Shown here in pieces: positions 1 through 48,283 of a DNA stretch of 64,000 nucleotides. Made by a program: the position numbers and the translations under genes. Origin of the DNA: an uncultured Clostridia bacterium (lineage in GTDB: Bacteria > Bacillota > Clostridia > TANB77 > CAG-508); NCBI GenBank assembly GCA_944392805.1, contig CALXXZ010000006.1:21587-85586 (forward strand), given 5' to 3'. The notes beneath the pieces were generated by a model, which worked only from the letters and a program-made list of their open reading frames with translations, had not been told where the DNA came from and did no database searches. How positions within the stretch are numbered: position 1 is the first letter of the stretch; the number at the start of each line of letters is the position of its first letter.

Positions 1-939
1 AATTTCTGTTCCTTGATATGTAATTTTAGTTGTTCCACATACTTTTATTGCACATCTTTGGAAAATTTCCTCTGTTATGTCCATCATATCATGATAGTTT
101 TGATATGCAGCATAAAATTCTATTGATGTAAATTCTGGATTGTGTCTAATATCCATTCCTTCATTTCTAAATATTCTACCTATTTCATATACTTTATCAT
201 ATCCACCTACTATTAATCTTTTTAAGTTTAATTCAGTTGCTATTCTTAAATACATGTCAATATCTAGTGTGTTATGATGTGTTATAAATGGTCTTGCTGT
301 TGCTCCTCCTGATATTGTGTTTAGTATCGGTGTTTCTACTTCTAAATATCCTTTTTCATTTAATATATTTCTTATTTCATTTATTATTTGACTTCTTTTT
401 ATAAATGTTTCTTTTACTTCTGGATTCATGATTAGGTCGACATATCTTTGTCTATATCTTAAGTCTACATCTTTTAATCCATGGAATTTTTCTGGTAATG
501 GTCTTAATGATTTTGAAAGTAATGTTACTTCTTTTGCATGTACAGAGATTTCTTCTGTTCTTGTTTTAAATACAAATCCTGTTATTCCAATTATGTCTCC
601 AATATCCCATGTTTTAAATGCTTTATATGCTTCTTCTCCTAAGTCATTTATACTTACATAACTTTGGATTTTTTCATCACTATCTAATATTGTACAAAAT
701 GATGCTTTTCCCATTATTCTTTTAGCTATTATTCTTCCTGCTACTGTTACATCTTTTTGTTCAAATTTTTCATAGTTTGCTTTTATTTCTCCTGCTGAAT
801 TTGTTCTATTAAATTTTGTTATTTCATATGGATCTTTTCCTTGTTCTTGTAATTCTTTTAATTTTTCTTTTCTTATTTGTATTAAATGATTTTCATCTAA
901 TTCTACTTCTTGATTTTGATTATTATTATTTTCTTGCAT
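1..939 (-). CDS. lysS: Lysyl-tRNA synthetase, N-terminal ~313 codons; the gene continues past the window start
   Basis: Reverse-strand translation from ATG at 939..937 reads MQENNNN...[24 protein letters not shown]...[15 protein letters not shown]...RIFRNEGMD..., typical class II LysRS OB-fold and catalytic core. AGGAGAG ribosome-binding site sits 10 nt upstream. The ORF is open to position 1. Confidence 0.85.
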
Positions 940-961
940 TTTTCATCTCTCCTTTTCTTTA

Positions 962-1037
962 TGGAGCTTCTAACGGGAATTGAACCCGTGACCTCCACCT
1001 TACCAAGGTGGCACTCTACCTACTGAGCTATAGAAGC
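962..1037 (-). tRNA. tRNA-Thr (anticodon GGT)
   Basis: Reverse complement reads gcttctatagctcagtaggtagagtgccaccttggtaaggtggaggtcacgggttcaattcccgttagaagctcca. It folds as a cloverleaf with anticodon loop ttGGTaa, a T-arm GTTCAATT and a 3' CCA. It lies 22 nt upstream of the lysS start on the same strand. Confidence 0.8.
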
Positions 1038-1105
1038 ATTAACTGACAGTATTATATTATATTTCTACTGGAAAATCAAGACAAAAGCAGAAGTTTTCTC
1101 CTGCT

Positions 1106-1501
1106 TTAAAATATATTTTGTAAATTAAATGAATTTTTGTCTTCTATATGTTCAAGTATGAATTTGCCCTCTTCTAATTCAGCAGAAGCAGAGGAAAAAT
1201 CTTCTGTTTCAAAATAGCTTTTCATATTTACTATAGCAGTATCTACTTTTTCTAGTTCATCATGTTCAATATAATATGCTAATTTATCATGCATATCTTT
1301 CCAGTTTTTATTTAATTCATCTATTTTTTCTTTTGTTTTTTCTTTATTTTCTAATGTCATCTCTTCTTTTATTGATGATAATTCTTTAGTTATTGTTTCA
1401 ACACTCTGTTTTGTATAATTTTGTGTAAATAAATCTAAACAAACTATTGAAATAATAATTATTATACAAATTACTGTTTCTTTAAACATTTTTACCACCA
1501 T
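1106..1501 (-). CDS. Small N-terminally membrane-anchored protein (DUF4363-like), partner of the DUF421 gene
   Basis: 131-aa ORF with an N-terminal hydrophobic segment followed by a charged coiled region. It overlaps the upstream DUF421 gene by 20 nt, the usual YetF/DUF4363 pair arrangement in Firmicutes. A weak hairpin terminator lies 3' at ~1083-1105. Confidence 0.45.
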   Translation of the reverse strand: MVVKMFKETVICIIIIISIVCLDLFTQNYTKQSVETITKELSSIKEEMTLENKEKTKEKIDELNKNWKDMHDKLAYYIEHDELEKVDTAIVNMKSYFETEDFSSASAELEEGKFILEHIEDKNSFNLQNIF

Positions 1502-2171
1502 CCTTTTCTAGTGGTTGGCAAAAAAACTTACCTTCTCCATCTATTGTAATTATTAATGCTTCTTCTGGCTTGATTCCAAATTTTTCAGTCTGTTTTTTTA
1601 ACCATGCATAGTTCTTACCAATTTTTTGTAAATTTTCATACATTACTTTTCCATCAACAACTAAATCATATGGAATTCCTTCATATTTAGGCTCAATATT
1701 AAAATCTTCAGGTGTCGTAGCTCTTTTATTTGGTTTTGGAATTACTGTTACTTGTCCACTTGTCTCTAATATTGCATATTCTACATCTCCTATATTAAAT
1801 ATACTATTGTCTCTTAGTCTTTCTTCTAATTCGTTTATTGTAAATCTTTCTTTTTTTAATACTTTTTGATCAACTTTTCCTCTATATATTAATATTGATG
1901 GTTTTCCACATATTATTTCTCTTGCTCTTGAACTTTTCATATTTATCATTGATATTACTAAATGCATCACCAATAATCCTAATATTGGCATTATTCCATT
2001 TGTTAGCGGTACTCCCGTTTCTGCCATTGGTACTGCTGCTAAGTCTGCTATCATTATAGATATTGCAAGTTCAAATGGTTGTAATTGTCCAATTTCTCTT
2101 TTTCCCATTAATCTCATTACTATTAATACTAATATGTACAAAACTATCGCTCTAAAAAATGTAATTAACAT
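1482..2171 (-). CDS. DUF421 (YetF/YrbG-like) membrane protein
   Basis: 229 aa with N-terminal transmembrane helices (MLITFFRAIVLYILVLIVMRLMGKREIGQLQPFELAISIMIADLAA...) and a C-terminal soluble domain. The architecture matches the DUF421 family. Confidence 0.55.
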   Translation of the reverse strand: MLITFFRAIVLYILVLIVMRLMGKREIGQLQPFELAISIMIADLAAVPMAETGVPLTNGIMPILGLLVMHLVISMINMKSSRAREIICGKPSILIYRGKVDQKVLKKERFTINELEERLRDNSIFNIGDVEYAILETSGQVTVIPKPNKRATTPEDFNIEPKYEGIPYDLVVDGKVMYENLQKIGKNYAWLKKQTEKFGIKPEEALIITIDGEGKFFCQPLEKDGGKNV

Positions 2172-2336
2172 TTAAGTTCTCCTTTTTTCAAATATTTTTA
2201 CATTTATTTTCTACATTTTTTAGTTATTTATACGATTTTTGTATAATTAATTTTTTGTTGTAAATAATATTGATATAACCTTGAAAAAAAATGACGTTTA
2301 ATACGTTTAATAAAAACTGATAAGGAGGTTTTTGAT

Positions 2337-2708
2337 ATGTCAAATACTCAAAGTAATAGTGCTAATGGCACTTCTACAGTTTGGCAAGTTGTTGGTAGAT
2401 TAGTTGCAGCCGCTATCGTTTTAGCAATTACAGCATTTTTTACACCTGGTTTTTCTATTAATAATATTTGGGCTTTAGCTATCGCCGCAATTGTTTTAAC
2501 TATAATGGATTACTTAATTATTAAATTTACAGGTTTACACGCAAGTCCATTTGGAAAAGGTTTTGTTGGATTCGCTCTAGCTGCTATTATTTTATATGCT
2601 ACTCAATTCTTTGTAGCTGGTTATTCAATTTCTTGGATGGCTGCAATAATTGGTGCTTTAATATATGGTGTAGTAGATTATTTTATACCTGGAAATCAAC
2701 AAATGTAA
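2337..2708 (+). CDS. Holin-like four-transmembrane small membrane protein (phage holin family 4 / DUF360-like)
   Basis: 123 aa, four predicted transmembrane helices, Gly/Ala-rich. GGAGG ribosome-binding site 7 nt upstream of ATG. An extended -10 (TGTATAAT) lies at ~2239. There is no prophage context. Confidence 0.45.
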   Translation: MSNTQSNSANGTSTVWQVVGRLVAAAIVLAITAFFTPGFSINNIWALAIAAIVLTIMDYLIIKFTGLHASPFGKGFVGFALAAIILYATQFFVAGYSISWMAAIIGALIYGVVDYFIPGNQQM

Positions 2709-2945
2709 AAAAGGGGACGGTCCTGTTTGGTTCGGGACGGTCCTCTTTTATCCATATCTATATTTTTTATTACAACCGAAAAGTTGATATATTACTATTC
2801 CATAGCCAAAACATATTCTGGGTCTTCGTCGGGGGTCTTGGCTTTATTTCATAGTAATATATCAACTTTTCGGTTTTGTTAAAATAAAAAAGTGCACAAA
2901 AGAGGACCGTCCCGAACCAAACAGGACCGTCCCCAAATTATCAAA
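2709..2945. repeat. MITE-like structured repeat element, copy A: 37-bp terminal inverted repeats around a ~150-bp core with nested palindromes
   Basis: Left arm ggggacggtcctgtttggttcgggacggtcctctttt (2713-2749) and its exact reverse complement at 2900-2936. The core carries a 25-bp perfect inverted repeat (aaccgaaaagttgatatattactat / atagtaatatatcaacttttcggtt) around a 48-nt centre. It is homologous to the element at 14040-14245 in opposite orientation. Confidence 0.6.
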
Positions 2946-3611
2946 TTAAATTTTATCTACTATTTCATTTTTATTTTTATAAACACTATTTTCAGGAACT
3001 ACTCCTCTAACAGAAGATAGTGGATATATATTAGTATTTTTACCAACAACAGTTCCTGGATTCAAAACACTACCACATCCAACTTCAACTCCATCACCTA
3101 TCATTGCTCCAAATTTTTTCAATCCTGTTTCTATTGATTCTGTCTCATTTTTTACAATAACTAATTTTTTATCTGATTTCACATTTGATGTTATTGAACC
3201 TGCTCCCATATGTGATTTATATCCTAATATTGAATCACCTACATAATTATAATGTGGTACTTGTACTTTATTAAATAATATAACATTTTTTAATTCTGTT
3301 GAATTTCCTACAACAGCGCCATTTCCTACAATTACCTTTCCTCTAATAAATGCACAATGTCTTATTTCTGCATTTTCTCCTATAATTGCAGGGCCTTTAA
3401 TATATGCTGTTGGTGTTATTTCCGCTGTTTTTGCAATCCATATATTTTCTTCTTTTTGCTCATAAATTTCTTTATTTAAAGTAGGTCCTATTTTTAAAAT
3501 AAATTCATTTATTTCTGGTAATGCCTCCCATGGATATATATAATTTTCTAATAATTCTTTTGCAATTGTTTCTTCTAGATTATAAAGATTTTTTATTTTA
3601 CATTCTTCCAT
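2946..3611 (-). CDS. Hexapeptide-repeat (left-handed beta-helix) transferase, GlmU C-terminal-domain-like
   Basis: 221 aa with repeated [LIV]G-x-x-x-x hexads (IIGENAEIRHCAFIRGKVIVGNGAVVGNSTELKNVIL...GAMIGDGVEVGCGSVLNPGTVVGKNTNI). It sits directly downstream of a UDPGP-family gene. Confidence 0.6.
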   Translation of the reverse strand: MEECKIKNLYNLEETIAKELLENYIYPWEALPEINEFILKIGPTLNKEIYEQKEENIWIAKTAEITPTAYIKGPAIIGENAEIRHCAFIRGKVIVGNGAVVGNSTELKNVILFNKVQVPHYNYVGDSILGYKSHMGAGSITSNVKSDKKLVIVKNETESIETGLKKFGAMIGDGVEVGCGSVLNPGTVVGKNTNIYPLSSVRGVVPENSVYKNKNEIVDKI

Positions 3612-3625
3612 ATAAAATTTCCTTT

Positions 3626-4873
3626 CTATTGTTGTCTATTCCAAAACTTTTCATATAATTCTTTTGCTGTTTTTGGACTATCAACACCTTCTTTATTTTT
3701 TACTGGTGCAAAATCATCTTCTCTTTTTCCTCTTAATATTGCAATATCATCAAAAAATTCAAATGCATCAAATATAAATGATTCAAATTTATAAGAATTT
3801 GGTTCTTCTGGTATTACTTCTTTTCCATTTTCATCTATATATGAATTTTTCTTGAATGCACAATGATACATCAATGGTTCTTGACTAACTTTTTCTATTG
3901 CATCTATTGTATATAGATTACACATTATATGTGATTCTCCATATTTTAATTGTCCTTTTCTATCAACTTGTTCTGCCATTTTTTCTGGTAATTCTGCATA
4001 TTCTATTACTTTTGGATGTCCATTCATTTTACAGAATACCCCTACTTTTTCATGAGGATTTGCTTTTACAACTGACTTTGATGCTATTTGCACTTTTTTC
4101 TCTTTTGCCATTCCAAGTAATGTTACATCAGCCATTTTTAATAATGCATTATCTACTCCTCCAATAAATACCCATTGTATTCCTCTTTCTTTCATATCAG
4201 CAAGTGCTCCTGATGCTCTTAATGATGAATATGTTCCACCATTTCCATCTGATGCTTCTTTTATTTTAAAATCTTTTCCTATAAGTAGTTTGCCTTCTGT
4301 ATCTATTAATGGTAATTCACTTTGCATAAATATTGTTACATAATCTTTATCATATCCAAAATAATTGTTCTTTTCTAAGAATTTCACTGTTTCTTCATTG
4401 TTTTCTCTACTTGTCATTATATACCATGGTATTGTTGTTTCGTATTTTTGATTTGCTGATTTTAGGTTTTCTGTTAATATTTCAAATAAATATTTTCCTT
4501 TTCCATATACATCTAGTTTAAATGTTCCTTTTGGTCCAGGATGACCTAATCTTGTTCCTTGACCTCCAGCCATTGTTACTACTGCATATTTTCCATTTCT
4601 TATTATTTTTTCTCCTAATTCGTCAAATCTCTTTCTTTGTTTTTCTGTTAAAGTCTCTTTGTCCAAATATTTTATTGGTTCTATTTTACTTTCTTTAAAT
4701 TCTATTTCTTTTTTCGTATTTTCATATAATTCTGCAATCTGATGTAAGTCAATACTTTCTATTTGTTTGATTAATTCCTCTCTTTTATTGTCGTCTAGTT
4801 TTTTTAGCAATTTTATAATATGTTCTTGATTGTATAATTTTAAAATGTCTATTGTATCTTGCATTTTATCCAT
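3626..4873 (-). CDS. UDPGP-family UDP-sugar pyrophosphorylase (UDP-N-acetylglucosamine pyrophosphorylase-like, eukaryotic UAP1 type)
   Basis: 415 aa. It contains the nucleotide-binding signature VVTMAGGQGTRLG and the overall UDPGP fold pattern, and is paired with the hexapeptide transferase. Confidence 0.7.
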   Translation of the reverse strand: MDKMQDTIDILKLYNQEHIIKLLKKLDDNKREELIKQIESIDLHQIAELYENTKKEIEFKESKIEPIKYLDKETLTEKQRKRFDELGEKIIRNGKYAVVTMAGGQGTRLGHPGPKGTFKLDVYGKGKYLFEILTENLKSANQKYETTIPWYIMTSRENNEETVKFLEKNNYFGYDKDYVTIFMQSELPLIDTEGKLLIGKDFKIKEASDGNGGTYSSLRASGALADMKERGIQWVFIGGVDNALLKMADVTLLGMAKEKKVQIASKSVVKANPHEKVGVFCKMNGHPKVIEYAELPEKMAEQVDRKGQLKYGESHIMCNLYTIDAIEKVSQEPLMYHCAFKKNSYIDENGKEVIPEEPNSYKFESFIFDAFEFFDDIAILRGKREDDFAPVKNKEGVDSPKTAKELYEKFWNRQQ

Positions 4874-5050
4874 TTTATCCTTCTCCTTTTGCTCAGTTTC
4901 ACTATATTATATGTTCTTTCGAATTACAATTCTATCATATTTATTTTTATTTTTCAAGTTTTTTTAAAATCGTGGTTATATTCTTAATATTTAAACAATA
5001 TATATTAATAAAAGTTTGTCTTAACTAGAAAATTCAAGGAGGTAGTATAG

Positions 5051-6529
5051 ATGGAAAATGTAGGCTTATATCAAGATATAGCCAAACGAACTGATGGTGA
5101 TATTTATATTGGAGTTGTCGGCCCTGTAAGAACTGGTAAATCTACTTTTATAAAGAAGTTCATGGATTTACTTGTTATTCCTAATATAGATAATGAGTAC
5201 AAAAAAGAAAGGGCTAAAGATGAACTTCCACAAAGTGCTGGAGGACGTACAATTATGACAACAGAACCTAAGTTTGTTCCTAATGAGGCTGTTGAAATTA
5301 CAATAGATAAAAATTTAAAATTAAAGACACGTTTAGTTGATTGTGTTGGATATTTAGTCGATAATGCAATTGGGTATTTGGAAGATGATATGCCTAGGAT
5401 GGTTAAAACTCCATGGTCAGAAGAAGAAATTCCTTTTGAAACAGCTGCAGAAATCGGAACTAAAAAGGTAATTGAAGAACATTCTACTATTGGAATTTTA
5501 ATTACAACTGATGGTACTGTTACTGATATCCCACGTGATGACTATATTAAAGCAGAAGAAAGAGTTGTTAGCGAACTTAGAGCATTAAATAAACCATTTA
5601 TTATATTACTAAATTCAGCTAATCCATCTTCTCCTGAAACAAGAGATTTAGCAACACAATTGTCAGAAAAATATAATACAAATGTTATGCCTATTAATTG
5701 TGAAGAACTTTCAGCAGAAGATATTAATACAATGTTTTCTAATTTGCTTTATGAGTTCCCTGTTGAAGAAATTAAAATTAGTTTTCCTAAATGGATTGAT
5801 GGATTAGATTTTACTCATCCATTAAAAGCTAAATTATTTGACCAAATTAAAAATGCTTTTACTAATATTTCTGCTTTAAAAGATGTTTCAAATTGTGTAT
5901 CTTCAATTGATAGTACTGATATTATCTCTAAAACTTTTGTAAATAATATCATGCTTGGTAATGGAAAAGTTTGTATTTCTGTTAATTTGAAAGATGAACT
6001 ATTTTATGAAGTTTTAACACAAATGACTGGAATGAATATTACAAATGAAGGAGAATTGTTCTCTATTATGAGTGATTTAGCAAGTACTAAGAAAAAATAT
6101 GATAAAATTGCGTATGCACTTGAAGAAGTTAAAACTAAAGGCTATGGTATTGTTACTCCTTCTATTGACGAACTTGTTTTAGAAGAACCTGAAATGGTTA
6201 AACAGGGCTCTCGCTTTGGCGTTAAACTTCGTGCAACTGCCCCTTCTATCCACTTGATTCGTGCTAATATCGAAACTGAGGTTTCTCCTATCGTTGGCTC
6301 TGAAAAACAATCAGAAGAACTTGTTAATTATCTTCTTTCTGGTTTTGAAAATGACCCTACAAGTATTTGGAGTTCTAATATCTTTGGAAAGAGTTTGAAT
6401 GAATTGGTTAATGAAGGTTTACAAACTAAACTTGCTAAAATGCCTGAAGAAGCTCAAATGAAACTTCAAGAAACTCTTGAACGTATTGTTAATGAAGGTA
6501 GTGGCGGATTGATTTGTATTATTTTATAA
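5051..6529 (+). CDS. spoIVA: Stage IV sporulation protein A (spore coat morphogenetic ATPase)
   Basis: 492 aa. N-terminus MENVGLYQDIAKRTDGDIYIGVVGPVRTGKSTFIKKFM is nearly identical to the SpoIVA Walker-A region. A hairpin terminator follows at 6536-6562. Confidence 0.9.
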   Translation: MENVGLYQDIAKRTDGDIYIGVVGPVRTGKSTFIKKFMDLLVIPNIDNEYKKERAKDELPQSAGGRTIMTTEPKFVPNEAVEITIDKNLKLKTRLVDCVGYLVDNAIGYLEDDMPRMVKTPWSEEEIPFETAAEIGTKKVIEEHSTIGILITTDGTVTDIPRDDYIKAEERVVSELRALNKPFIILLNSANPSSPETRDLATQLSEKYNTNVMPINCEELSAEDINTMFSNLLYEFPVEEIKISFPKWIDGLDFTHPLKAKLFDQIKNAFTNISALKDVSNCVSSIDSTDIISKTFVNNIMLGNGKVCISVNLKDELFYEVLTQMTGMNITNEGELFSIMSDLASTKKKYDKIAYALEEVKTKGYGIVTPSIDELVLEEPEMVKQGSRFGVKLRATAPSIHLIRANIETEVSPIVGSEKQSEELVNYLLSGFENDPTSIWSSNIFGKSLNELVNEGLQTKLAKMPEEAQMKLQETLERIVNEGSGGLICIIL

Positions 6530-6535
6530 TTAGTA

Positions 6536-6562
6536 AAGAGGAGCTATTAAAACTCCTCTTTA
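6536..6562 (+). terminator. Rho-independent terminator after spoIVA
   Basis: aaagaggagctattaaaactcctcttt hairpin followed by a T-run. Confidence 0.6.
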
Positions 6563-6664
6563 TTTTTCTTTTATTTCATATTCTCATTTCCTAAACTTAA
6601 TATTTCTGTTGTAAAATCTAATTAATTGTAGTATAATAGAAAAAAATTTAAACATGGAGGATAT

Positions 6665-7345
6665 ATGAAAATACTTAGTATAGATACAGCAAGTAATATA
6701 TGTACAGTTGCATTATTAGAAAATAAAACTTGTATAAAAGAATTAATTGTAAATGACGCAAGAAATCATTCAGAAAAAATTATGCCCTTAATTGAACAAC
6801 TTTTTAACGAAACTCAAACATCTTTAAAAGACATCGATTTAATTGTATGTGATAAAGGTCCTGGTTCATTTACTGGTATACGCATTGGGACAGGTACAGT
6901 TCTAGCCTTCAGAGACAGTCTAAACATAGAATGTATTGGTATTAGCTCACTTGAAGCTTTATCATATAATACTAATTCAGAAGGGCTAATCTGTTCTCTA
7001 ATTGATGCTAAAAACAATAATGTTTATTATGGATTGTTTGAATTAAAAAATGGAGTTTATTCTAAGATTGGCGACTTTAGTTTTAAAAATATTAATGATA
7101 TTGTTCCTTTATTAAATAAATATTCTGAGCCAATTACATTCGTTGGAGATGGTGCTGTTGCATATAAAGAATTCATAACAAACAATTTTAATAATTGTAC
7201 ATTTTGTAAAAAAAATGACTTAAGTAGTTATTCACTTGGATGCGCAGGATATTATAATTACAATAAAGGTGTAAAAAATGATATTATGCCACTATACCTA
7301 AGAAAATCACAAGCGGAGAGAGCCTTAGAAGAGAAAGGTGGATAA
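6665..7345 (+). CDS. tsaB: tRNA threonylcarbamoyladenosine biosynthesis protein TsaB (YeaZ)
   Basis: 226 aa. MKILSIDTASNICTVALLEN...DKGPGSFTGIRIGTGTV is the canonical inactive-Kae1 paralog signature. It overlaps rimI by 8 nt. Confidence 0.85.
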   Translation: MKILSIDTASNICTVALLENKTCIKELIVNDARNHSEKIMPLIEQLFNETQTSLKDIDLIVCDKGPGSFTGIRIGTGTVLAFRDSLNIECIGISSLEALSYNTNSEGLICSLIDAKNNNVYYGLFELKNGVYSKIGDFSFKNINDIVPLLNKYSEPITFVGDGAVAYKEFITNNFNNCTFCKKNDLSSYSLGCAGYYNYNKGVKNDIMPLYLRKSQAERALEEKGG

Positions 7346-7784
7346 AATTATGGAAATTACCGAAATGACTTTAACTGATTTAGAGCAAATGAAAAATACC
7401 TTATATTCCGATTTTGATAATTTTTGGAGTTATAATGTTTTAAAACAAGAACTTGAAAACGAAAACACTACATATATTATAGCAAAAGAAAATAATGAAG
7501 TTGTTGGTTTTGCAGGAATTTCTATTTGTCTTGATGAAGCCACTCTTAATAATATAGTTGTTAAAAAAACTTGTCGTGGTCGCGGAATTGGTGGAGAATT
7601 ATTAGAATCATTATTAGAAATATGTGTGAAATTAAATATGAAATCTCTTACTTTAGAGGTTAATGTTTCTAATACTCCTGCAATTAATTTATATGAAAAG
7701 TTTGGTTTTAAAAATTTAGGAATAAGAAAAAAATATTATAATAATTCACAGGATGCAATTATTATGACTAAATATGATATTTAG
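7338..7784 (+). CDS. rimI: Ribosomal-protein-alanine N-acetyltransferase (GNAT)
   Basis: 148 aa GNAT fold with acetyl-CoA motif NIVVKKTCRGRGIGGELLESL. Gene order is tsaB-rimI. Confidence 0.8.
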   Translation: MDKIMEITEMTLTDLEQMKNTLYSDFDNFWSYNVLKQELENENTTYIIAKENNEVVGFAGISICLDEATLNNIVVKKTCRGRGIGGELLESLLEICVKLNMKSLTLEVNVSNTPAINLYEKFGFKNLGIRKKYYNNSQDAIIMTKYDI

Positions 7785-7785: not shown

Positions 7786-7850
7786 AAAAAGGGACGGTTC
7801 TGTTTGGAAGGGGACGGTCCTCTTCCAAACAGAACCGTCCCCTTTTTAAA
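7786..7850. repeat. Solo palindromic hairpin of the GGGACGGTYC repeat family; likely bidirectional terminator
   Basis: aaaaagggacggttctgtttggaaggggacggtcctcttccaaacagaaccgtcccctttttaaa has a 17-bp perfect stem. Its arms match the terminal inverted repeats of the 2709-2945 element. It lies between convergent rimI and the ylmH-like gene. Confidence 0.6.
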
Positions 7851-8646
7851 CAAATTTTTCTACTTTTATTATAGTTCTTCCACTTTTAGTTTGTCCTACT
7901 AATTCTTTTATATAAAATCTTCCTTTTCCTCTAATTGTAACAATATCTCCTGGTTTTATCTGTTTAGTTTTTTTAGTTTCATTTTGAAAATTTATAAAAA
8001 CTCTTTCCATATTTATAATCTCTAATGCTTTATTTCTTGAACATCTTGCCAATTCTGAAATAACATTATCTAACCTTAATGATGAAACAATTATATCAAT
8101 TTCTTCCTTTTTTATTTCTACCTTTCTTAAGTTTTCTATTTTTTCTACTGTAATTTTTGATTTAGAAAATCTAGTTAAACTATTCAAATTTTCTAATAAA
8201 AATTTTGTAATATCTTTATCAACTATAATATCTGCTCCATCTTTATCTACAATGATGTCACCAACTTTTTCTCTTTTCACTCCTAATTTTATTACTGCTC
8301 CTAAATAGTCTCTATGTGAATATTTACCTTTCAAATCCTCTGGTAATTCTATTCTAACTATATCTACTATACTACTCAAATTCTTTGATACAACTTCTGT
8401 GTTGAATTTCTCTGGATATATCACATACATTTTTCTTTCTGCTTCTTCAAATCCGCCATAAGCCATATAGTTTGTAATTTTTATCTTATTTATAAATTTT
8501 TGTACCAATTCAATTTGTGACATATCTAAAAAATCAGTATGTTCTATTTTATTTTTGTTTTCTACTGCTTCTACTTTATCTAAAATCTGTGCTAACAAAA
8601 TTTTATCATCTTTGTCTCTATATTCATTTAAAATGTCTCTATTCAT
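7846..8646 (-). CDS. YlmH-like RNA-binding protein with C-terminal S4 domain
   Basis: 266 aa. The C-terminal ...RLDNVISELARCSRNKALEIINMERVFINFQ...IKPGDIVTIRGKGRFYIKEL is an S4-type RNA-binding module. Confidence 0.55.
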   Translation of the reverse strand: MNRDILNEYRDKDDKILLAQILDKVEAVENKNKIEHTDFLDMSQIELVQKFINKIKITNYMAYGGFEEAERKMYVIYPEKFNTEVVSKNLSSIVDIVRIELPEDLKGKYSHRDYLGAVIKLGVKREKVGDIIVDKDGADIIVDKDITKFLLENLNSLTRFSKSKITVEKIENLRKVEIKKEEIDIIVSSLRLDNVISELARCSRNKALEIINMERVFINFQNETKKTKQIKPGDIVTIRGKGRFYIKELVGQTKSGRTIIKVEKFV

Positions 8647-11586: not shown

Positions 11587-12612
11587 CTATTGATTTTTTA
11601 TGTTCAATTTACTTATTAGCGCATCTGTATACATTTTTATTTTTTCCTCTGTTTCTCCATTTTTTATCATTTCTTCTTGTAATTCTTTTCTTACTATTTC
11701 TGTCATTTCTTTCCATGCTTGTTCTTTTGCTTCTTCTTCTACTGTACCCCTTAATTCTTTTATGGCTTGTTCTCTTGCTTCTTTTCTTATTGCGTCATTT
11801 TCTCTTTTTAATCTTTCTATTAATGTACTCATTTGATCATTTCCTACCTTTCCACTTATCATTTCTAATAATTCTACTTCTTCACCTTGTAGTATATCTT
11901 TTTGTATAAATATAATATAATTTTTTAATTTCATTAACTGTTTTATATCTTTCGTATTTTCTATTATCTTCTTAATGTTAGTTACCATTTCATCTTTATT
12001 AGTACTTTTTTCTATAAGCATTATGCTTGCTATATATGTTTGTTTAATCAATAACTCTTCTCTAGATATTTGGCTTATATCTATTAATTTATATTTCATA
12101 TCTATTTTGTATTCTTCATATTCTTCTTTAGATAATTCTTGCTTATCAGCAAAGTTCTTTGCCACTGACCATTTTCTTTCTCCTGTATATATTACTATTG
12201 GAACTATTGTTGGATATATTTTCTGATTACTGTTTTCTATTATTTTTCTCATTAATTCCATACAATATCTCAACATCCTATATGGCATGTTCAAATCAAC
12301 TGTTGATTGATGTTCAACAATATAATATATTTCTTCTCCTTCTTTTTTATAAACTATATCTGATAGTCTTACCTCATATTGTTCTGTTATATGTTCGGCT
12401 CCATATATTTTTAGTTTTTTGTCATCAACTTTTATATTCAAAAAATTACTAAGAAAATTTGACATTTCTTCAGGGTCTTCTAAAGCCTTTTTAAATGATT
12501 TATCATGTTTTTGTATAATCTTATTTTCTAATAATTTTTCTTCTATCCCAAAATAGTTTTTTTGTGTCAATAATACATAGTCAGCATATGTGAATTCATA
12601 TTCTCCGATCAT
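11587..12612 (-). CDS. Rpn-family recombination-promoting nuclease / putative transposase (PD-(D/E)XK, YhgA-like), paralog 1
   Basis: 341 aa. The N-terminal domain ...YKKEGEEIYYIVEHQSTVDLNMPYRMLRYC... is typical of the Rpn/Transposase_31 family, followed by a C-terminal charged helical tail. Confidence 0.7.
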   Translation of the reverse strand: MIGEYEFTYADYVLLTQKNYFGIEEKLLENKIIQKHDKSFKKALEDPEEMSNFLSNFLNIKVDDKKLKIYGAEHITEQYEVRLSDIVYKKEGEEIYYIVEHQSTVDLNMPYRMLRYCMELMRKIIENSNQKIYPTIVPIVIYTGERKWSVAKNFADKQELSKEEYEEYKIDMKYKLIDISQISREELLIKQTYIASIMLIEKSTNKDEMVTNIKKIIENTKDIKQLMKLKNYIIFIQKDILQGEEVELLEMISGKVGNDQMSTLIERLKRENDAIRKEAREQAIKELRGTVEEEAKEQAWKEMTEIVRKELQEEMIKNGETEEKIKMYTDALISKLNIKNQ

Positions 12613-13995: not shown

Positions 13996-14039
13996 TACAT
14001 TTTATCATATTATTTACATTTTTCAAGCTTTTTATTCTA

Positions 14040-14245
14040 AAAGAAACAGTCCTGTTTAGTTCATTTTTTTACTTATAATTATTATAAAAAGTTTATATAT
14101 TACTATGAAATAAAGCAAAGACCCCCGACGAAGACCCAGAATATGGTTTTGCTATTGAATAGTAATATATAAACTTTTCATTAAAAATAAATATAGAAAT
14201 GTACTAAAGGGGACCGTCCCTTTCAGAATAGAACCGTCCCCTTTA
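14040..14245. repeat. MITE-like structured repeat element, copy B (inverted relative to copy A; terminal repeats partly degenerate)
   Basis: It shares the ~90-bp core (tatattactattc.atagc.aaa.catattctgggtcttcgtcgggggtctt.gctttatttcatagtaatatat) with copy A. Substitutions are compensatory in both nested stems. The right arm gggacggttctattctgaaagggacggtcccc provides the last 8 codons and the stop of the nrdD ORF. Confidence 0.6.
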
Positions 14246-15800
14246 GTGTAAATCCTACATTAGTTTCTTTTCTCCATTTTTTTACTCTCTCATTCAAATA
14301 CTTCAATATTTTAGATGAAAACTCATTAGCCTCTGAATCTGTATTTGATACATCCTTCAACATTTTTACAGTTTCATCTAATCCTATATATCCTAAAGTC
14401 AAAGTAGAATTATCGTCATATAAATATTTATCTATTTTTTCACCTTTCTTTAAACGTGCTATTGCTCCATATTGCCAATGAATTGGTGATATATCTGACT
14501 TTGTTCCTAATAGTGCATAATGCCTACACATCAAAGCTTCTTTGCAAATTTCAAGTCTCTCATCTAGTAATTTCCAAAACTCTTCTTCATTTTCTTTTGT
14601 AAGTTCTGCTATTTGTAATAAATTTATACTTACTATACCTTGATTAAATCTTCCTTCATCTTTTATTTTACTAGATTGTATATATTGTAATCCAGAACAT
14701 TTAGAAGCTAATTTTTTTAAATATTCATATTTTTCATCTTCAATATTGTTATTATCATCTAAAACATATACTAGTTTTGGAATTGTCGAAGTTTCATAAA
14801 TCCCTTCCTCATTTTTTATTCCTTGCATAGTCTGTTTCAATAATTCTTCAATTATCTTTGCATTTTCTTCAACATATTCATGTTTTGTCTCTAAATGAAG
14901 TAATAATGTTACTTTTGGTGGTTGTCCATTTATTGTTGTTAGTGTATTTATTTGATATATCAACATCTGCACTCCTGCTGATAATTCTTCTTTTACCCTA
15001 TCATTTATTATTTCTTCTAATATTTCTTTTGGTATTTTTCCTCCATATTTTTCTGTTAAATTTTCTTTATACTTATTATAACTTCTTCTTAAATATTTTC
15101 CTAAATGAATTAAGTCTATTACTTCTTCTCCATATTGATTGCTTCCTACTGCTTGAATTATTCTAGTCAATACACTACATACTACTTGAAAACTTTTTGG
15201 ACTTTCTATCATTTTTCCATTTATTACTGTTCCATTGTCTAGCATATCTTCGATATTTACTATACTACTATTGAATATTGGTTGTATAAAATAATCTGCA
15301 TTGTGAAAATATAATATACCTTCTTCTTGTGCTTTAGATATTTTTTCTGGCAATAAAATTCTTCTTGTTAAATCTCTTGAGACTTCACCTGCTATATAAT
15401 CTCTTTGGTTTGCTGCAGAAAGAACATTTCTTTTTGTCCTTTCTTCTGCAACTTCTTTATCTTGATTTCTTAATAATCCTAATATTGACTCATCTGTTGT
15501 ATTCGATTTTCTTACTAATGTTCTTGTATATCTATATACTATATATTTTTTTGCAAGTTCATATCTGTCATATTCCATTAGCTTTTGTTCTATTATATCT
15601 TGAATATCTTCTACTAGAATTCTCTTTTTTCCTAGTTCTTCTATATATTCTATTATTTCATTAATCTCTTTTTTGGTTGCTTTTTCTTTTTCTTTGACTT
15701 CTCTATTTGCTTTTTGAATTGCAGTTTCAATTTTTGCTCTATCAAATTCAATTGTTCTACCATCTCTTTTTATAACTTTCATTATTTTATTTCCTCCCAA
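14223..15800 (-). pseudogene. nrdD: Anaerobic ribonucleoside-triphosphate reductase (class III RNR), C-terminally truncated; no glycyl-radical domain and no adjacent activase
   Basis: 525 aa with an N-terminal ATP-cone (MKVIKRDGRTIEFDRAKIETAIQKA) and NrdD-like core up to ...TLGYIGLDE...GFTL. The reading frame then runs into repeat element B (KGTVLF-stop is encoded by the element hairpin). No Zn-ribbon, no RxCGY glycyl-radical motif and no nrdG are present nearby. Confidence 0.55.
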
Positions 15801-16980: not shown

Positions 16981-17850
16981 ATGGCAAAGTTTTTAAATCA
17001 TTTTATAGGATTAAATATTAATCCTAATGACTTAGAATTACAAAATCCCAATTTTATAACTAGAAATTACAAATATAATCAAGCTGATATTTTATACAAA
17101 TTAAAGGATAGAAATGTTTATTATTTAATTGAGCAACAAACTTGTGTCGACTACTCAATGGCTTACCGAATATTAAATTATTGTATAGAAACTATTAGAT
17201 TAGCCATTAAAGACGAAAATATAAATAATAAATTTTACAAATTTCCTAAAATTATACCTATTGTTATATATATCGGAAACATAAAATGGACTGCTAGTAC
17301 CTCATTTGCCAATTGTGAGGTAGAATATCCTGATTTTAATTTTAATTCACTTGAGACAAAATTTAAATTGATTGATATAAATAATTTTGAAATTGAAGCT
17401 TTACTAAGGTTAAAAACTATGATTGCAAATACAATGATTTTAGAAAAAAGTAAAAATAATGATGAAGTTGTTGAAAATTTAAAGAAAATCACAAAAAATT
17501 TAACTAGCCAAAAAAGTAAAATGAAAGAATTGAAACGAATTGTTAGTTACTTATATGAAAACATGAAAAATATTAAAGAAATTTTAAATTTAATTGAAGA
17601 AAGTGAGGATGATGCAAATATGAGCACTGTTGCTGAAAGATTAAGAGAAGAATATAAAAATGAAAGATTAATTGGAATTTCCCAAGGAATTTCTCAAGGA
17701 ATTTCTCAGGGTATTGCTCAAGGTCTTTCGCAAATTATAAAAAACATGTTAAATTACAACGTTCCTGAAGAAGATATAATTAGATACACTCATGTGGACA
17801 AAAAACAGTTTGACAAAATAAAAAAAGAATATGAAAATGAATCTAAATAA
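16981..17850 (+). CDS. Rpn-family recombination-promoting nuclease / putative transposase, paralog 2 (as called from the first ATG; the reading frame and homology extend a further 74 codons upstream to ~16759)
   Basis: 289 aa from the ATG. It is homologous to paralog 1 across the PD-(D/E)XK core. The upstream in-frame segment ...GGIFIEEYEFTYWDYLKCIGKYDEF... matches the paralog 1 N-terminus MIGEYEFTYADYVLL, but there is no ATG/GTG/TTG. GGAGG sits 7 nt before an ATC codon at 16783. Confidence 0.6.
   Translation: MAKFLNHFIGLNINPNDLELQNPNFITRNYKYNQADILYKLKDRNVYYLIEQQTCVDYSMAYRILNYCIETIRLAIKDENINNKFYKFPKIIPIVIYIGNIKWTASTSFANCEVEYPDFNFNSLETKFKLIDINNFEIEALLRLKTMIANTMILEKSKNNDEVVENLKKITKNLTSQKSKMKELKRIVSYLYENMKNIKEILNLIEESEDDANMSTVAERLREEYKNERLIGISQGISQGISQGIAQGLSQIIKNMLNYNVPEEDIIRYTHVDKKQFDKIKKEYENESK
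17675..17734 (+). repeat. 12-bp tandem repeat x5 inside the Rpn paralog 2 coding sequence (GISQ peptide repeat)
   Basis: ggaatttcccaa ggaatttctcaa ggaatttctcag ggtattgctcaa ggtctttcgcaa encodes GISQGISQGISQGIAQGLSQ. Confidence 0.7.
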
Positions 17851-18957: not shown

Positions 18958-19827
18958 ATGAAAAAATGTCTATTTACAGGTGTCGCAACTGCACTTGCTA
19001 CTCCTTTTAATGATGAAGGAATTAATATTCCAGAATTTGAAAAGTTCATAAATTTTCAAATAGAATCTGGTGTTGATGCTTTAGTTGTTTGTGGTACTAC
19101 TGGAGAATCTAGTACAATGACTAAAAATGAAAAAATTGAAGCTATTAAATGTGCTGTAAGCATAACTAAAAAAAGAATTCCTGTAATTGCTGGAACTGGT
19201 TCAAATAATACATCTTCTGCTATTGAAATGTCAAAAATCGCAGAAATTCTTGGAGCTGATGGACTTTTAGTTGTTACACCATATTATAACAAAACTACTC
19301 AAAAAGGATTAATCGAGCATTTTAAAGCAATTGCAACTTCCGTTTCAATTCCTATCATTTTATATAATGTTCCTAGTAGGACTGGTATGAATATTCTTCC
19401 AGAAACATGTTTTGAACTTTCTAAAATTGATAATATTGTTGGAATTAAAGAAGCTAGTGGTAACATTTCACAAGTTGCTAAAATTGCACATCTTTGTGGT
19501 GATGATTTTGCTATATATTCTGGTAATGATGACCAAATTTTACCAATACTTTCTTTTGGCGGAAAAGGTGTAATTTCTGTTCTTTCTAATGTTGCTCCAG
19601 AACTCACATGCAGTATCACTAATTCATTTTTTAAAAATGCTATCGCAGAAGCTTGTCATTATCAGTTAGAAGCTCTGCCTTTAATTGAAGCATTATTTGC
19701 TGAAACTAATCCTATTCCTGTTAAAGAGGCAATTAATTTGTTAGGTTTCGATTTTGGTAAGCCTAGACTTCCTTTAGTTGAGTGTTCTTCTGAGCTTAAA
19801 GACATCTTAAAACAACAAATGCACTAA
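18958..19827 (+). CDS. dapA: 4-hydroxy-tetrahydrodipicolinate synthase
   Basis: 289 aa. TPF...GVDALVVCGTTGES and the Schiff-base lysine region (IVGIKEASG) are characteristic. It follows asd immediately. Confidence 0.9.
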   Translation: MKKCLFTGVATALATPFNDEGINIPEFEKFINFQIESGVDALVVCGTTGESSTMTKNEKIEAIKCAVSITKKRIPVIAGTGSNNTSSAIEMSKIAEILGADGLLVVTPYYNKTTQKGLIEHFKAIATSVSIPIILYNVPSRTGMNILPETCFELSKIDNIVGIKEASGNISQVAKIAHLCGDDFAIYSGNDDQILPILSFGGKGVISVLSNVAPELTCSITNSFFKNAIAEACHYQLEALPLIEALFAETNPIPVKEAINLLGFDFGKPRLPLVECSSELKDILKQQMH

Positions 19828-19845
19828 AGGGGACTGTCCCCTTTT
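19826..19845. terminator. Bidirectional hairpin terminator (GGGGAC..GTCCCC type)
   Basis: aaaggggactgtcccctttt lies between convergent dapA and the 19851..20642 gene. Confidence 0.7.
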
Positions 19846-38481: not shown

Positions 38482-38753
38482 CAGTCATACAATTACAAAA
38501 TAATTGTATGACTGCCCTATTCTTTCATATCTATTTTATCAATTTTCGGATATCAATATTAGGTATTTTTTTATTCCGTGCTCATAAATTTTATAGAGGC
38601 GATTTTTATGATATTAGAAGAATATACCCTAGAAAATACAAAAATAAAATTTTACGATGATTATATAGTTAAGAATATTGATACTCAAAAAGAATATATA
38701 AATAATGTTATTATAAATTTGATAAGAAAATCCTTTTCATGAAAGGAGAAATT

Positions 38754-40301: not shown

Positions 40302-40400
40302 TCACATAAAAATACTACTTTAACAACAATTGTGAAAGAATAAATATGTGCATTTTTAAGCATATTTATTCTTTTGAATATTCTCCCAAATGAAGAGTAT

Positions 40401-40883
40401 TTAATTTTTATCTTTTAATAAAACATTTCTCATTTCAACTATATCATAAAAAGGAATATGTATTCCTTCTTCTGCTAATCTTACTACTCTTAATGCAATA
40501 GTTATAATCTCATCTTTAACTACTTTTGGAATTTCTACATCTATATTTGAATTTATATACTTTTCTGCTATGTATTTTTCAGTAGTTGGAAAAATATTTT
40601 GTATCAAGAATACAGCTTTTTTTCCTAACACATTTCCAAAAACAAAATTATATACCGGTCGATTTCCAATTTTTAATTTTTTATTATCATAGATTTTTTT
40701 GTATTTATCATATTTAGTTGATATAGGAACAAACCATATTATTTCTTTATCTTTTCTATCTCTAAAACAAAAATAGCAAGGTCTTTTATTTCCAGATTCT
40801 TTATTTTTCATTAATTTATATTTTTTAAATATATCAAAAAACTCATCTTTTATAAAATAAAATTTTCCATCTTCTATTACCAT
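40401..40883 (-). CDS. ToxN/AbiQ-like endoribonuclease toxin candidate (type III toxin-antitoxin / abortive infection)
   Basis: 160 aa. The N-terminus KFYFIKDEFFDIFKKY...NKRPCYFCF...VPISTKY...FLIQNIFPTTEKY matches the ToxN/AbiQ pattern (KFY.I..Y...L..FD.KV...RP/NP....PL[ST]S.K; ...MIPI.E). It is immediately preceded by tandem repeats and a terminator in the type III toxin-antitoxin arrangement. Confidence 0.5.
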   Translation of the reverse strand: MVIEDGKFYFIKDEFFDIFKKYKLMKNKESGNKRPCYFCFRDRKDKEIIWFVPISTKYDKYKKIYDNKKLKIGNRPVYNFVFGNVLGKKAVFLIQNIFPTTEKYIAEKYINSNIDVEIPKVVKDEIITIALRVVRLAEEGIHIPFYDIVEMRNVLLKDKN

Positions 40884-40953
40884 TCTTTATCTCCTTTTAT
40901 GAAAATATGGGATCTAACTTAACTTTATAGACCCCATATTTTTACTATACTTA

Positions 40954-41060
40954 ACATTTTTTCACCTGCACATTTATATCTCGCAAGCAGGGTTGCGGTT
41001 CACATTTTTTCACCTATCCATTTATTCGACGCAAATAGGGTTGCGACTCACATTTTTAAT
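40954..41060 (-). ncRNA. Candidate type III antitoxin RNA: 2.2 tandem 48-nt repeats upstream of the ToxN-like gene
   Basis: R1 acattttttcacctgcacatttatatctcgcaagcagggttgcggttc and R2 acattttttcacctatccatttattcgacgcaaatagggttgcgactc are ~75% identical. Each has a conserved cgcaa-N6-ttgcg stem. A partial third repeat follows. A hairpin (aaatatgggatctaac...agaccccatattt, ~40905-40945) separates the repeats from the toxin gene. Confidence 0.5.
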
Positions 41061-41408: not shown

Positions 41409-41472
41409 TTAAAAATTCCCCCTTTCCCAAGGCCACCCTTGGTTCAATATGGAGGAATTTTTTATAATTGTT

Positions 41473-48275: not shown

Positions 48276-48283
48276 ATTTATAC

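What the first reader, a model, noticed from the sequence alone, without database searches (positions are those of the whole stretch)
2709..2945. MITE-like ~240-bp repeat with 37-bp terminal inverted repeats and a doubly nested palindromic core; substitutions between copies are compensatory in both stems
Copy A (2709-2945) and copy B (14040-14245, inverted) share a ~90-bp core. Copy A has an outer 25-bp perfect inverted repeat (aaaagttgatatat...atatatcaactttt) and an inner stem (agccaa...ttggct) around gggtcttcgtcggggg. In copy B both stems are changed on both arms (aaaagtttatatat...atatataaactttt; agcaaa...tttgct), so pairing is preserved. This covariation indicates selection on a folded RNA or on a single-stranded DNA hairpin, as with IS200/IS605-type PATEs or REP/RAYT substrates. 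The terminal arms carry the GGGACGGTCC motif that also forms this genome's terminator hairpins (7786-7850, 19826-19845). The element seems to sit inside the loop of such hairpins. In both copies the same element strand is co-directional with the upstream gene, so it would be transcribed as a 3' UTR.
Basis: seen in the sequence. Interest (0 to 1): 0.7.

Follow-up and report, generated by a model that had tools for sequence, protein, structure and literature searches.

The report
Nested palindromic repeat in terminator hairpins
This is a real, previously undescribed family of short hairpin-forming DNA repeats scattered between the genes of some uncultured gut Clostridia, often sitting exactly in the middle of transcription-terminator hairpins; it is a new example of a known kind of bacterial "junk-like" repeat rather than a new RNA gene.

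Summary
Copy A (2709-2937) and copy B (about 14037-14253, inverted) share a 92-nt core hairpin. Both stems differ by compensated changes.

The core is a repeat family. There are 33 exact-apex copies in five species-representative MAGs, 25 of them in one MAG 92% identical to this window. All copies are intergenic. A long form of about 180-225 bp, with GGGACGGTCC-type arms, is shared by at least 17 loci.

Orthologous loci in relatives lack the element. They show that the insert lies at the dyad of a GGGAC-N-GTCCC terminator palindrome, in two independent cases.

The RNA reading is not supported:
- Core stems are 98.8% Watson-Crick, and G-U pairs are as rare as A-C.
- The asymmetric centre is inverted in 3 of 5 orthologous pairs.
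- No Rfam family matches.

No IS200-type (Y1), RAYT or parent IS was seen in the annotated part of the window or as matching terminal repeats in the held DNA.

Best reading: a new REP/BIME-, ERIC- or MITE-like palindromic DNA repeat. Pairing is selected at the DNA-hairpin level and kept by template switching or arm-to-arm conversion. The mobilising enzyme is unknown. Interest is moderate.

The parts
2709..2937 (+). Copy A, the whole nested palindrome (long form) between convergent genes 2337-2708(+) and 2946-3611(-)
   Evidence: (I3, I16)
2713..2749 (+). Copy A left arm: GGGGAC | GGTCC-TGTTTGGTTC-GGGAC | GGTCCTCTTTT (two GGGACGGTCC units, P-x-P)
2898..2934 (+). Copy A right arm, the reverse complement of the left arm (central base of each P unit is complementary, not identical)
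2719..2928 (+). DNA present in the window and in L010 but absent from the orthologous site of relatives L046-48, which have only AAAAAAGGGGAC-T-GTCCCCTTTTT
2779..2870 (+). Copy A core hairpin (92 nt): 20-bp outer stem, 3x3 pyrimidine mismatch loop, 2 bp, TT bulge, 6-bp inner stem, 28-nt asymmetric apex
   Evidence: 114.7 bits
2810..2837 (+). Asymmetric apex AACATATTCTGGGTCTTCGTCGGGGGTC. The 22-mer CTGGGTCTTCGTCGGGGGTCTT (2818-2839) was the search key
2799..2801 (+). Left half (TCC) of the conserved unpaired 3x3 loop. The right half is TTC at 2848-2850. Both arms read TATTYCATAG on the same strand (a direct repeat)
14087..14178 (-). Copy B core hairpin
   Evidence: 110.6 bits
14049..14215 (-). 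DNA present in the window but absent from the orthologous site in relatives L055 and L056. On the element strand it begins GTCC..TTTAGTNCATTT and ends AAATGNACTAAA..GGAC, at the dyad of GGAC-N-GTC
14197..14253 (-). Copy B intact arm, which is the P-x-P terminator palindrome at the 3' end of nrdD. The nrdD stop codon (14223-14225) and its last codons lie inside it
14037..14066 (-). Copy B degenerate far arm (CTAAAAGAAACAGTCCTGTTTAGTTCATTT)
7786..7847 (.). P-x-P-x'-P palindrome without a core, between convergent genes 7338-7784(+) and 7846-8646(-). It is the same arm modules with an unfilled centre
   Evidence: (I25)
19808..19843 (.). Simple terminator palindrome AAATGCACTAAAGGGGAC-T-GTCCCCTTTTGCGCATT. 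The orthologous site in L029 carries a core with unrelated arms
   Evidence: (D3)

Best explanation
It is a lineage-specific family of non-coding palindromic interspersed DNA repeats. It is comparable to REP/BIME, ERIC and bacterial MITEs, and it has two tiers.
- **Core:** a 92-bp hairpin with a conserved asymmetric centre (mismatch loop, TATTYCATAG boxes, 28-nt apex).
- **Long form:** in the window's lineage, about 180-225 bp. The core plus AT-rich spacers is flanked by inverted arms GGGACGGTCCTTTTTRGTGCATTT, with or without an extra GGGACGGTTCTGTTTGG module.

**Shown:**
- The family is multi-copy and always intergenic.
- It is present or absent at orthologous sites.
- Where it is present, the extra DNA lies at the dyad of a pre-existing GGGAC-N-GTCCC terminator palindrome. 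It starts with GTCC and ends with GGAC, so it rebuilds that palindrome on both sides and nests hairpin within hairpin.
- The core stems stay almost perfectly Watson-Crick.
- The asymmetric centre flips between related genomes.

**Inferred:**
- Pairing is selected at the level of a DNA hairpin (single-stranded DNA or cruciform) needed for copying or insertion.
- The double changes and the flips are produced by replication template switching or arm-to-arm gene conversion.
- The conserved unpaired features are the recognition site of an unidentified trans-acting protein.
- When transcribed, the element probably adds to bidirectional termination or 3'-end stability as a side effect.
For: **Copy number and distribution.** There are 31 loci with 33 exact-apex copies in 5 MAGs, 25 of them in BRZ_EF__bin101. 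That MAG is 92% identical to window 1-6559. A covariance model and nhmmer add 3 variant copies in the held loci, and an apex-free metagenome scan adds 12 more loci, including a second apex type.

**Location.** No copy lies inside an ORF. 11-12 of about 34 loci lie between convergent genes, against about 8-9 of 59 intergenic regions in the window.

**Pairing.**
- 93% of cells are paired, 21 of 31 pairs change on both sides, and no pair changes on one side only.
- Core stems are 856/866 Watson-Crick, with G-U 3 and A-C 2.
- Spacers and arms are only about 74% paired.

**Empty versus filled sites.**
- Copy A locus versus L046-48 and L049-54.
- Copy B locus versus L055 and L056.
- L009 filled versus L016/L022 empty.

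**Inversions at orthologous loci.**
- Window A versus L010.
- L016 versus L022, where the whole interior between the outer repeats is inverted.
- L035 versus L044.

**Arms.** 17 long-form copies share the arm consensus. Private arm variants are shared by the two arms of a single locus.

**Wider palindromes.** 20 of 45 scored copies (orthologous duplicates included) are centred in larger flanking inverted repeats, some of unrelated sequence.

**Mechanism in the literature.** Template switching homogenises inverted-repeat arms, inverts spacers and makes compensated double changes (PMC8794818, PMC8604942).
Against: - No mobilising gene was identified, and no clear target-site duplication was seen.
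- Insertion cannot be told from precise deletion for copy A, where one relative is empty and two lineages are filled.
- Orientation relative to co-directional genes is skewed: about 14 sense to 4-5 antisense. A purely DNA-level, freely flipping element does not predict this.
- The apex and boxes are conserved across species. L016 and L022 cores are virtually identical (at most one difference at the outer end) while their flanks differ by 9%. This calls for a sequence-specific function that is not identified here.
- Three apex variants each allow a short apical stem. That stem is G-U-rich only on the + strand in the canonical form, a weak hint of strand-specific folding.
- Most copies were found by an exact apex search, so apex invariance is partly due to how they were found.
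Confidence: 0.55

Rival explanations
1. It is a structured cis-acting RNA: a 3'-UTR, intercistronic stabiliser or terminator, or a small RNA. Its hairpin is selected in the transcript and its conserved apex binds a protein or another RNA.
For: - Very stable predicted folds.
- Strong compensated variation.
- All copies lie in intergenic regions that are probably transcribed, often just after stop codons.
- Sense orientation is favoured about 14 to 4-5 in co-directional contexts.
- Variant apices (L006b, L017b, type 2) keep a short apical stem that is G-U-rich in the canonical form.
- A-run and T-run flanks make it terminator-like.
Against: - G-U pairs are as rare as A-C in the core stems (3 versus 2 of 866), and both strands fold equally well.
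- The asymmetric centre is inverted at 3 of 5 orthologous loci with unchanged gene context.
- About a third of copies lie between convergent genes, where both strands would be transcribed.
- No Rfam family matches, even at E up to 10.
- The registers of the apical stems differ between variants.
Confidence: 0.2
2. It is not autonomously mobile. It is a palindromic cassette that spreads only by short-homology recombination or gene conversion between related terminator palindromes (shared GGGAC/GTCCC and AAATGCACTAAAG ends), and it grows outward by template switching.
For: - The insert ends are the half-sites of the terminator palindrome itself.
- Flanking inverted repeats of locus-specific, unrelated sequence occur around some cores: L012, L029, L016/L022.
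- At one orthologous site the whole terminator region was replaced rather than cleanly interrupted (window 19808-19843 versus L029).
- No transposase was found.
- Two Rpn/YhgA-like (Transposase_31) genes lie in the window. In E. coli this family is reported to promote RecA-independent recombination (from my own knowledge, not checked here).
Against: - Solo cores occur in genomes and sites without P-type palindromes or any flanking repeat: L003, L007, L017, L024, L026, L028, L035. These cannot have arrived through terminator homology.
- The Rpn-like genes are not linked to elements in the held loci.
Confidence: 0.15
3. It is a host-used DNA site: a binding site or structural site for a nucleoid, recombination or replication protein that recognises the TATTYCATAG boxes and the apex in duplex or cruciform DNA, as gyrase and IHF bind BIMEs.
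For: - The boxes, inner-stem junction and apex are conserved in sequence across species, more than the flanks are.
- The boxes are direct repeats on both arms and are never 'corrected' to a perfect palindrome.
- Both orientations are tolerated at a given locus.
Against: - Presence varies at orthologous loci.
- No candidate protein was identified.
- The family is rare outside one lineage: 12 metagenome loci and 5 representative genomes.
Confidence: 0.1

Closest known systems
REP / BIME (repetitive extragenic palindromes and their mosaic arrangements, Enterobacteria and Pseudomonas)
   Same: - Extragenic palindromic units at gene 3' ends and between convergent genes.
- Mosaic combinations of palindromic units in alternating orientation with short linker motifs. 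Here these are the P units GGGACNGTCC, the x linker TGTTTGG.. and the AAATGCACTAAAG ends.
- Terminator-like behaviour is expected.
   Different: - The core is 92 nt, with a conserved asymmetric centre and an AT-rich stem.
- There is no GTAG-type 5' tetranucleotide.
- No RAYT gene was seen in the part examined.
- The host is a Firmicute.
- The elements are nested inside one another rather than arranged side by side.
ERIC / IRU (about 127-bp imperfect palindromes of Enterobacteria)
   Same: - A long imperfect palindrome found only in intergenic regions.
- It occurs in either orientation.
- It is present or absent at orthologous sites.
- Sequence is conserved across species.
- Compensated stem changes occur.
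- The means of spread is unknown.

The ERIC properties listed here are from my own knowledge.
   Different: - The sequence is unrelated and the phylum is different.
- This element sits at the dyad of terminator palindromes.
- A separate long form with its own arms exists.
Bacterial MITEs (Correia/NEMIS, RUP, bcr1 and others)
   Same: - Small and non-coding.
- Terminal inverted repeats.
- Tens of copies per genome.
- Intergenic.
- Nested or composite forms exist.
- Stop codons of neighbouring genes can lie in the element's ends.
   Different: - The termini are the variable part and the centre is the conserved part, the reverse of a transposase-bound terminal-repeat element.
- No target-site duplication was recognised. 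The flanking P units are inverted, not direct.
- No parent IS with the same ends was found.
Hairpin recombination substrates read as folded single-stranded DNA (integron attC, IS200/IS605 ends)
   Same: - Stem pairing is conserved while stem sequence varies.
- Conserved unpaired bases and an asymmetric terminal loop could tell the two strands apart.
   Different: - There are no cassette arrays.
- No IntI or Y1 transposase gene was seen.
- The base of the stem reads 5' ..GTT / AAC.. 3', the opposite of the attC R boxes (compared by eye with the attC consensus as I recall it).
- It is one long hairpin, not separate left-end and right-end hairpins.
Template-switch mutation at inverted repeats (a mutational process, not an element)
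   Same: It explains in one step the compensated double changes, the homogenised arms, the outward growth of complementarity and the inversion of the spacer (PMC8794818, PMC8604942).
   Different: It does not explain dispersal to many loci. It also does not explain why the mismatch loop and apex stay asymmetric and conserved.

Membership tests
MITE (non-autonomous DDE-type transposon) | Terminal inverted repeats shared by all copies | tested here: inconclusive
   Long-form copies share arms GGGACGGTCCTTTTTRGTGCATTT. In the core family, however, the outermost 10 bp of the stem differ between copies while the centre is conserved.
MITE (non-autonomous DDE-type transposon) | Direct target-site duplication | tested here: not met
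   The flanking P units have complementary, not identical, central bases in the loci inspected by eye (window A G/C twice, L010 T/A, L027 G/C). Solo cores show no clear direct repeat in AT-rich palindromic flanks.
MITE (non-autonomous DDE-type transposon) | A parent IS with the same ends and a transposase | tested here: inconclusive
   No other occurrence of the end sequences bracketing an ORF in the 444 kb held. Pfam annotation of window ORFs 1-46668 gave no matching IS. Whole genomes were not available.
MITE (non-autonomous DDE-type transposon) | Small, non-coding, multi-copy, with insertion polymorphism | tested here: met
   92-225 bp, at least 25 copies in one MAG, empty and filled orthologous sites.
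REP/RAYT | 20-40-nt GC-rich imperfect palindrome with a conserved 5' GTAG-type tetranucleotide | tested here: not met
   The core is 92 nt and AT-rich. The P unit GGGACNGTCC is 10-11 nt without such a tetranucleotide.
REP/RAYT | A RAYT (Y1 HUH, PF01797) gene in the genome, often flanked by REPs | tested here: inconclusive
   None among window ORFs 1-46668. ORFs 46748-63998 and the rest of the genome were not examined.
IS200/IS605 PATE | Distinct left-end and right-end subterminal hairpins, with strand-specific insertion 3' of a 4-5-nt target | tested here: not met
   It is one continuous hairpin. The insertion lies at a palindrome dyad. The two window copies are in opposite orientation within one stretch of uniform GC skew.
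Rfam structured RNA families | Match to a curated covariance model | tested here: not met
   Only two tRNAs at gathering score in the window. At E up to 10 there were only generic long-hairpin (plant miRNA precursor) models, far below their thresholds.
Structured functional RNA (generic) | Strand-specific structure: wobble pairs tolerated, one orientation relative to transcription | tested here: not met
   G-U 3 versus A-C 2 of 866 stem cells. Flips at 3 of 5 orthologous pairs. There is only a moderate sense bias, about 14 to 4-5.
Integron attC | R''/R' boxes (RYYYAAC...GTTRRRY), cassette arrays, IntI | tested here: not met
   By eye, the base of the stem has the opposite polarity (AAAAGTT...AACTTTT). 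Copies are dispersed and carry no cassettes. No integrase gene lies next to them.
Inverton (phase-variable invertible promoter) | Inverted repeats flanking an invertible segment with a promoter, a nearby invertase, and both orientations within a population | tested here: inconclusive
   The segment does invert between species. However, nine metagenome contigs of one species all have the same orientation, the consensus scan found no promoter in copy A, and no invertase is adjacent. The serine recombinases at 38.7-43 kb are distant. Read-level data were not available.
ERIC-like long intergenic palindrome | A long imperfect palindrome, intergenic only, in either orientation, variably present at orthologous loci, conserved in sequence across species | tested here: met
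   This is membership by analogy only, because there is no sequence similarity to ERIC.

The most novel reading that the evidence does not exclude
The core could be a structure-specific mobile hairpin. It would be copied or inserted as folded single-stranded DNA by an unidentified recombinase that reads the conserved mismatch loop, the TATTYCATAG boxes and the asymmetric apex, much as integrases read attC. It would insert into the exposed tip of other hairpins, namely the dyad of intrinsic-terminator palindromes. Because each insert rebuilds the GGGAC-N-GTCCC target on both sides, and the arm module carries one at its own centre, repeated insertion would give self-similar nested terminators.
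Probability: 0.2. Interest if true: 0.7.

Novelty: new member of a known kind. Interest (0 to 1): 0.42.

Why it matters
- **A caution about covariation.** This is a clean case where textbook-looking compensatory covariation does not indicate an RNA gene. Perfect Watson-Crick symmetry, no wobble pairs and recurrent flipping of the loop point to DNA-level palindrome dynamics. That matters for RNA-motif discovery in metagenomes.
- **Terminator turnover.** Intrinsic terminators in one gut Clostridia lineage are built from, and invaded by, repeated palindromic modules. These modules supply stop codons and terminators to neighbouring genes.
- **Assembly breaks.** The element breaks short-read assemblies. 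Public contigs end inside it.
- **A possible new enzyme.** If a dedicated enzyme that targets hairpin tips exists, it would be a new tool-like activity. Nothing here shows that it does.

Tried and rejected
- **Known RNA family:** rejected. Rfam gave nothing at gathering score or at E up to 10.
- **Phage or plasmid origin:** no match in viral contigs, phage records or plasmid records.
- **Sigma-70 promoter in the core:** by eye, the TTGACC/TTGACT subfamilies have a -35-like hexamer 16 nt upstream of TATAAA/TATTAT, and several solo copies sit 21-75 nt upstream of start codons. However, the -35 lies in the covarying inner stem and is not conserved, the scan found no promoter in copy A, and copy B is followed by a separate canonical promoter.
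- **Sporulation-sigma promoter (AC-N16-CATANNNT):** the canonical copy fits by eye, but the variant apices do not keep the last positions, and the downstream genes are not sporulation genes. Dropped.
- **Xer/dif-like site:** there is a by-eye resemblance of the outer stem to the XerD arm of Firmicute dif. It is AT-rich and was not tested. Not pursued.
- **Rpn/YhgA-like (Transposase_31) genes as the mobiliser:** two lie in the window, but they are not linked to elements in other loci.
- **Parent IS:** a search for the end sequences elsewhere found only chance AT-rich hits.
- **Target-site duplication:** none recognised.
- **Apical stem covariation:** three variants each allow a stem, but in different registers. 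Inconclusive.
- **Exact-protein look-ups for strain-level variants:** they returned only contigs broken at the element.
- **Published gut RNA motif catalogue:** the apex is not in the first 200 of 408 supplementary files of PMC8040213. The apex string occurs in no held paper.

Full report
**1.

Copy A is a 229-bp nested palindrome at 2709-2937.
- Its arms 2713-2766 and 2881-2934 are 89% complementary. The next layer, 2765-2798 and 2851-2884, is 91% complementary.
- The inner stem AGCCAA/TTGGCT encloses a 28-nt non-palindromic apex at 2810-2837.
- Both strands fold far better than shuffles: -127.8 and -134.9 kcal/mol, z about -18 and -20.

Copy B is the same unit inverted (I1).
- Its core is at 14087-14178.
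- One arm is intact (14197-14253) and the other has decayed (14037-14066).

The two copies differ in both stems by compensated changes. GGGACGGTCC with up to one mismatch occurs 12 times against 0.03 expected, only at the two copies and at 7786-7847 and 19826-19845.

**2. It is a repeat family**

An exact search for the apex 22-mer in one genome per species found 31 loci with 33 copies in five uncultured Clostridia MAGs. 25 of them are in BRZ_EF__bin101. That MAG is 92% identical to window 1-6559, so it is a sister species.

Profile and covariance-model searches of the held DNA added three variant copies and found no further copy in the window. An apex-free pattern scan of metagenome contigs gave 12 loci:
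- two near-canonical copies;
- ten copies with a second apex type (CATAGCTAGGGTCATACCTACAGGTCTT), all at one locus upstream of a HIT-family gene (identified by eye from its start, M-x-E-x-C-x-F-C-K-I-I-K-G-E-I-P; not checked against Pfam). The canonical copy L028 sits at the same locus.

There is no match in viral contigs, phage records or plasmid records, and none in Rfam.

**3. Anatomy**

The conserved unit is a 92-nt core. It has, from the outside in:
- a 20-bp AT-rich outer stem;
- a 3x3 pyrimidine-pyrimidine mismatch loop (TCC/TTC);
- two base pairs and a TT bulge;
- a 6-bp inner stem;
- a 28-nt asymmetric apex.

Both arms read TATTYCATAG on the same strand, so the mismatch loop is really a direct repeat.

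The outermost roughly 10 bp of the stem differ completely between copies yet stay complementary. The centre is conserved in sequence. This is the reverse of a classical transposon with terminal inverted repeats.

In the window's lineage, at least 17 copies carry a long form. On both sides there is an arm, GGGACGGTCCTTTTTRGTGCATTT, followed by about 20 nt of AT-rich spacer. Often a further GGGACGGTTCTGTTTGGnnn module lies outside that.

Other MAGs carry the core only. Of 45 scored copies (orthologous duplicates included), 20 are centred in a larger flanking inverted repeat. A few of these repeats are unrelated, locus-specific sequence: L012, L029, L016/L022.

**4. Where it sits**

All copies are intergenic. 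11-12 of about 34 independent loci lie between convergent genes, against about 14% of intergenic regions in the window.

Orthologous loci without the element were recovered through homologues of the flanking proteins.

*Copy A locus.*
- The closest relatives (flank protein 92% identical) have only AAAAAAGGGGAC-T-GTCCCCTTTTT.
- More distant relatives (87%) have an unrelated hairpin.
- The window reads ...AAAAGGGGAC[GGTCC...GGACC]GTCCCC....

*Copy B locus.*
- Two relatives (nrdD 86% and 79% identical) have ...GGGGACAGTTCTGTTTTGAAAAGGAC-A-GTCTCTTTTAGAAT... or a degenerate version of it.
- The window has about 167 extra bp exactly at that GGAC-N-GTC dyad. The extra DNA begins GTCC..TTTAGTNCATTT and ends AAATGNACTAAA..GGAC.

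- For copy B, two successive empty outgroups favour insertion.
- For copy A, a precise deletion cannot be excluded.

The site 7786-7847 carries the arm modules with an unfilled centre.

At a third locus the terminator region was replaced, not cleanly interrupted (window 19808-19843 versus L029).

**5. RNA or DNA?**

Covariation is strong. 21 of 31 pairs have changes on both sides, none changes on one side only, and 0 of 500 shuffles reach the observed values. But several results point away from RNA.

- **No wobble tolerance.** Core stems are 856/866 Watson-Crick, with 3 G-U, 2 A-C and 5 other mismatches. Wobble pairs are no better tolerated than mismatches, and neither strand is favoured.
- **Recurrent inversion.** The asymmetric centre is inverted relative to unchanged flanking genes in 3 of 5 orthologous pairs:
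  - window A versus L010;
  - L016 versus L022, where the whole interior between the outer 17-bp repeats, spacers included, is inverted;
  - L035 versus L044.
- **Not a fast switch.** Nine contigs of one species from different samples share one orientation.
- **Concerted arm evolution.** Private arm variants are shared by the two arms of a single locus.

These features match what template switching at inverted repeats produces: homogenised arms, compensated double changes and spacer inversion (PMC8794818, PMC8604942).

Mechanics alone is not enough, though. Spacers and arms are only about 74% paired, against 98.8% in the core stems. The mismatch loop and apex are never 'corrected'. The L016 and L022 cores are virtually identical (at most one difference at the outer end) while their flanks differ by 9%. 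So pairing in the core, and the sequence of the centre, are under selection. The target of that selection is most simply a DNA hairpin and a protein recognition site.

Two observations keep an RNA-level role alive:
- a sense bias of about 14 to 4-5 in co-directional contexts;
- a possible short apical stem that is G-U-rich in the canonical form.

**6. Who moves it?**

This is unknown.
- Pfam annotation of window ORFs up to 46.7 kb found no Y1/IS200 or RAYT gene.
- It did find two Transposase_31 (YhgA/Rpn-like) genes and two large serine recombinases. The Rpn-like genes are not linked to elements at other loci.
- No parent IS with the same ends occurs in the 444 kb held.
- No target-site duplication was recognised. 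The flanking P units are inverted copies, with complementary central bases.

**7. Classification**

It works like REP/BIME, ERIC and bacterial MITEs. It is a selfish or near-neutral palindromic intergenic repeat, mosaic and nested, and it supplies terminators and even stop codons.

It fails the tests for membership of REP/RAYT, IS200/IS605 PATEs, attC and any Rfam family. It lacks the target-site duplication and conserved termini of a classical MITE.

I file it as a new member of a known kind. The family is new, as is its habit of occupying the dyad of terminator palindromes. Interest is moderate. The main value is the caution about reading covariation as RNA structure, and the picture of terminator turnover in an uncultured gut lineage.

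Noticed in passing
window 14223-15800 (-): The nrdD gene (anaerobic ribonucleotide reductase) is truncated at its 3' end. It is 519-525 aa against 708 aa in typical homologues, and it lacks the glycyl-radical domain. Its last codons (K-G-T-V-L-F-stop) are encoded by the terminator palindrome. Relatives at 86% and 79% identity are truncated at the same point, and no C-terminal piece lies elsewhere in the window.
   Followed up: partly
window 11587-12612 (-) and 16981-17850 (+): Two paralogous Transposase_31 (YhgA/Rpn-like) ORFs, 37% identical to each other, lie on either side of copy B a few kb away. tblastn suggests the second may extend upstream to about 16780. They are not linked to elements in other loci.
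   Followed up: partly
window 38739-43057: Two large serine recombinase genes, 38739-40301 (+) and 41831-43057 (-), bracket a gene-poor stretch with two tandem 48-nt direct repeats at 40951-41046. No Rfam family matches there. This may be an integrated element or a sporulation-type excision element (D13, 52, 75, 76).
   Followed up: partly
L032 and L033 (public metagenome contigs matching window 2122-2707 and 2754-6611): Short-read assemblies end at or inside the element, so this palindrome breaks contigs.
   Followed up: yes
window 19808-19843; also 2700-2712: Stop codons of neighbouring genes lie inside the conserved AAATGCAC-TAA-AG end of the terminator palindrome. An example is the DHDPS-family gene 18958-19827. 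The repeat therefore supplies gene 3' ends (D3, 7, 49).
   Followed up: partly
L031 4033-4350 (MAG CALXQP01, E14__bin256): Three tandem copies of the core with a 108-nt period. The first is truncated at the end of the upstream gene.
   Followed up: no
window 5051-6529 and 45895-46668: SpoIVA and a Spo0A-like regulator are present. The host is therefore a spore-forming, low-GC (about 27%) Clostridia lineage known only from gut metagenomes.
   Followed up: no
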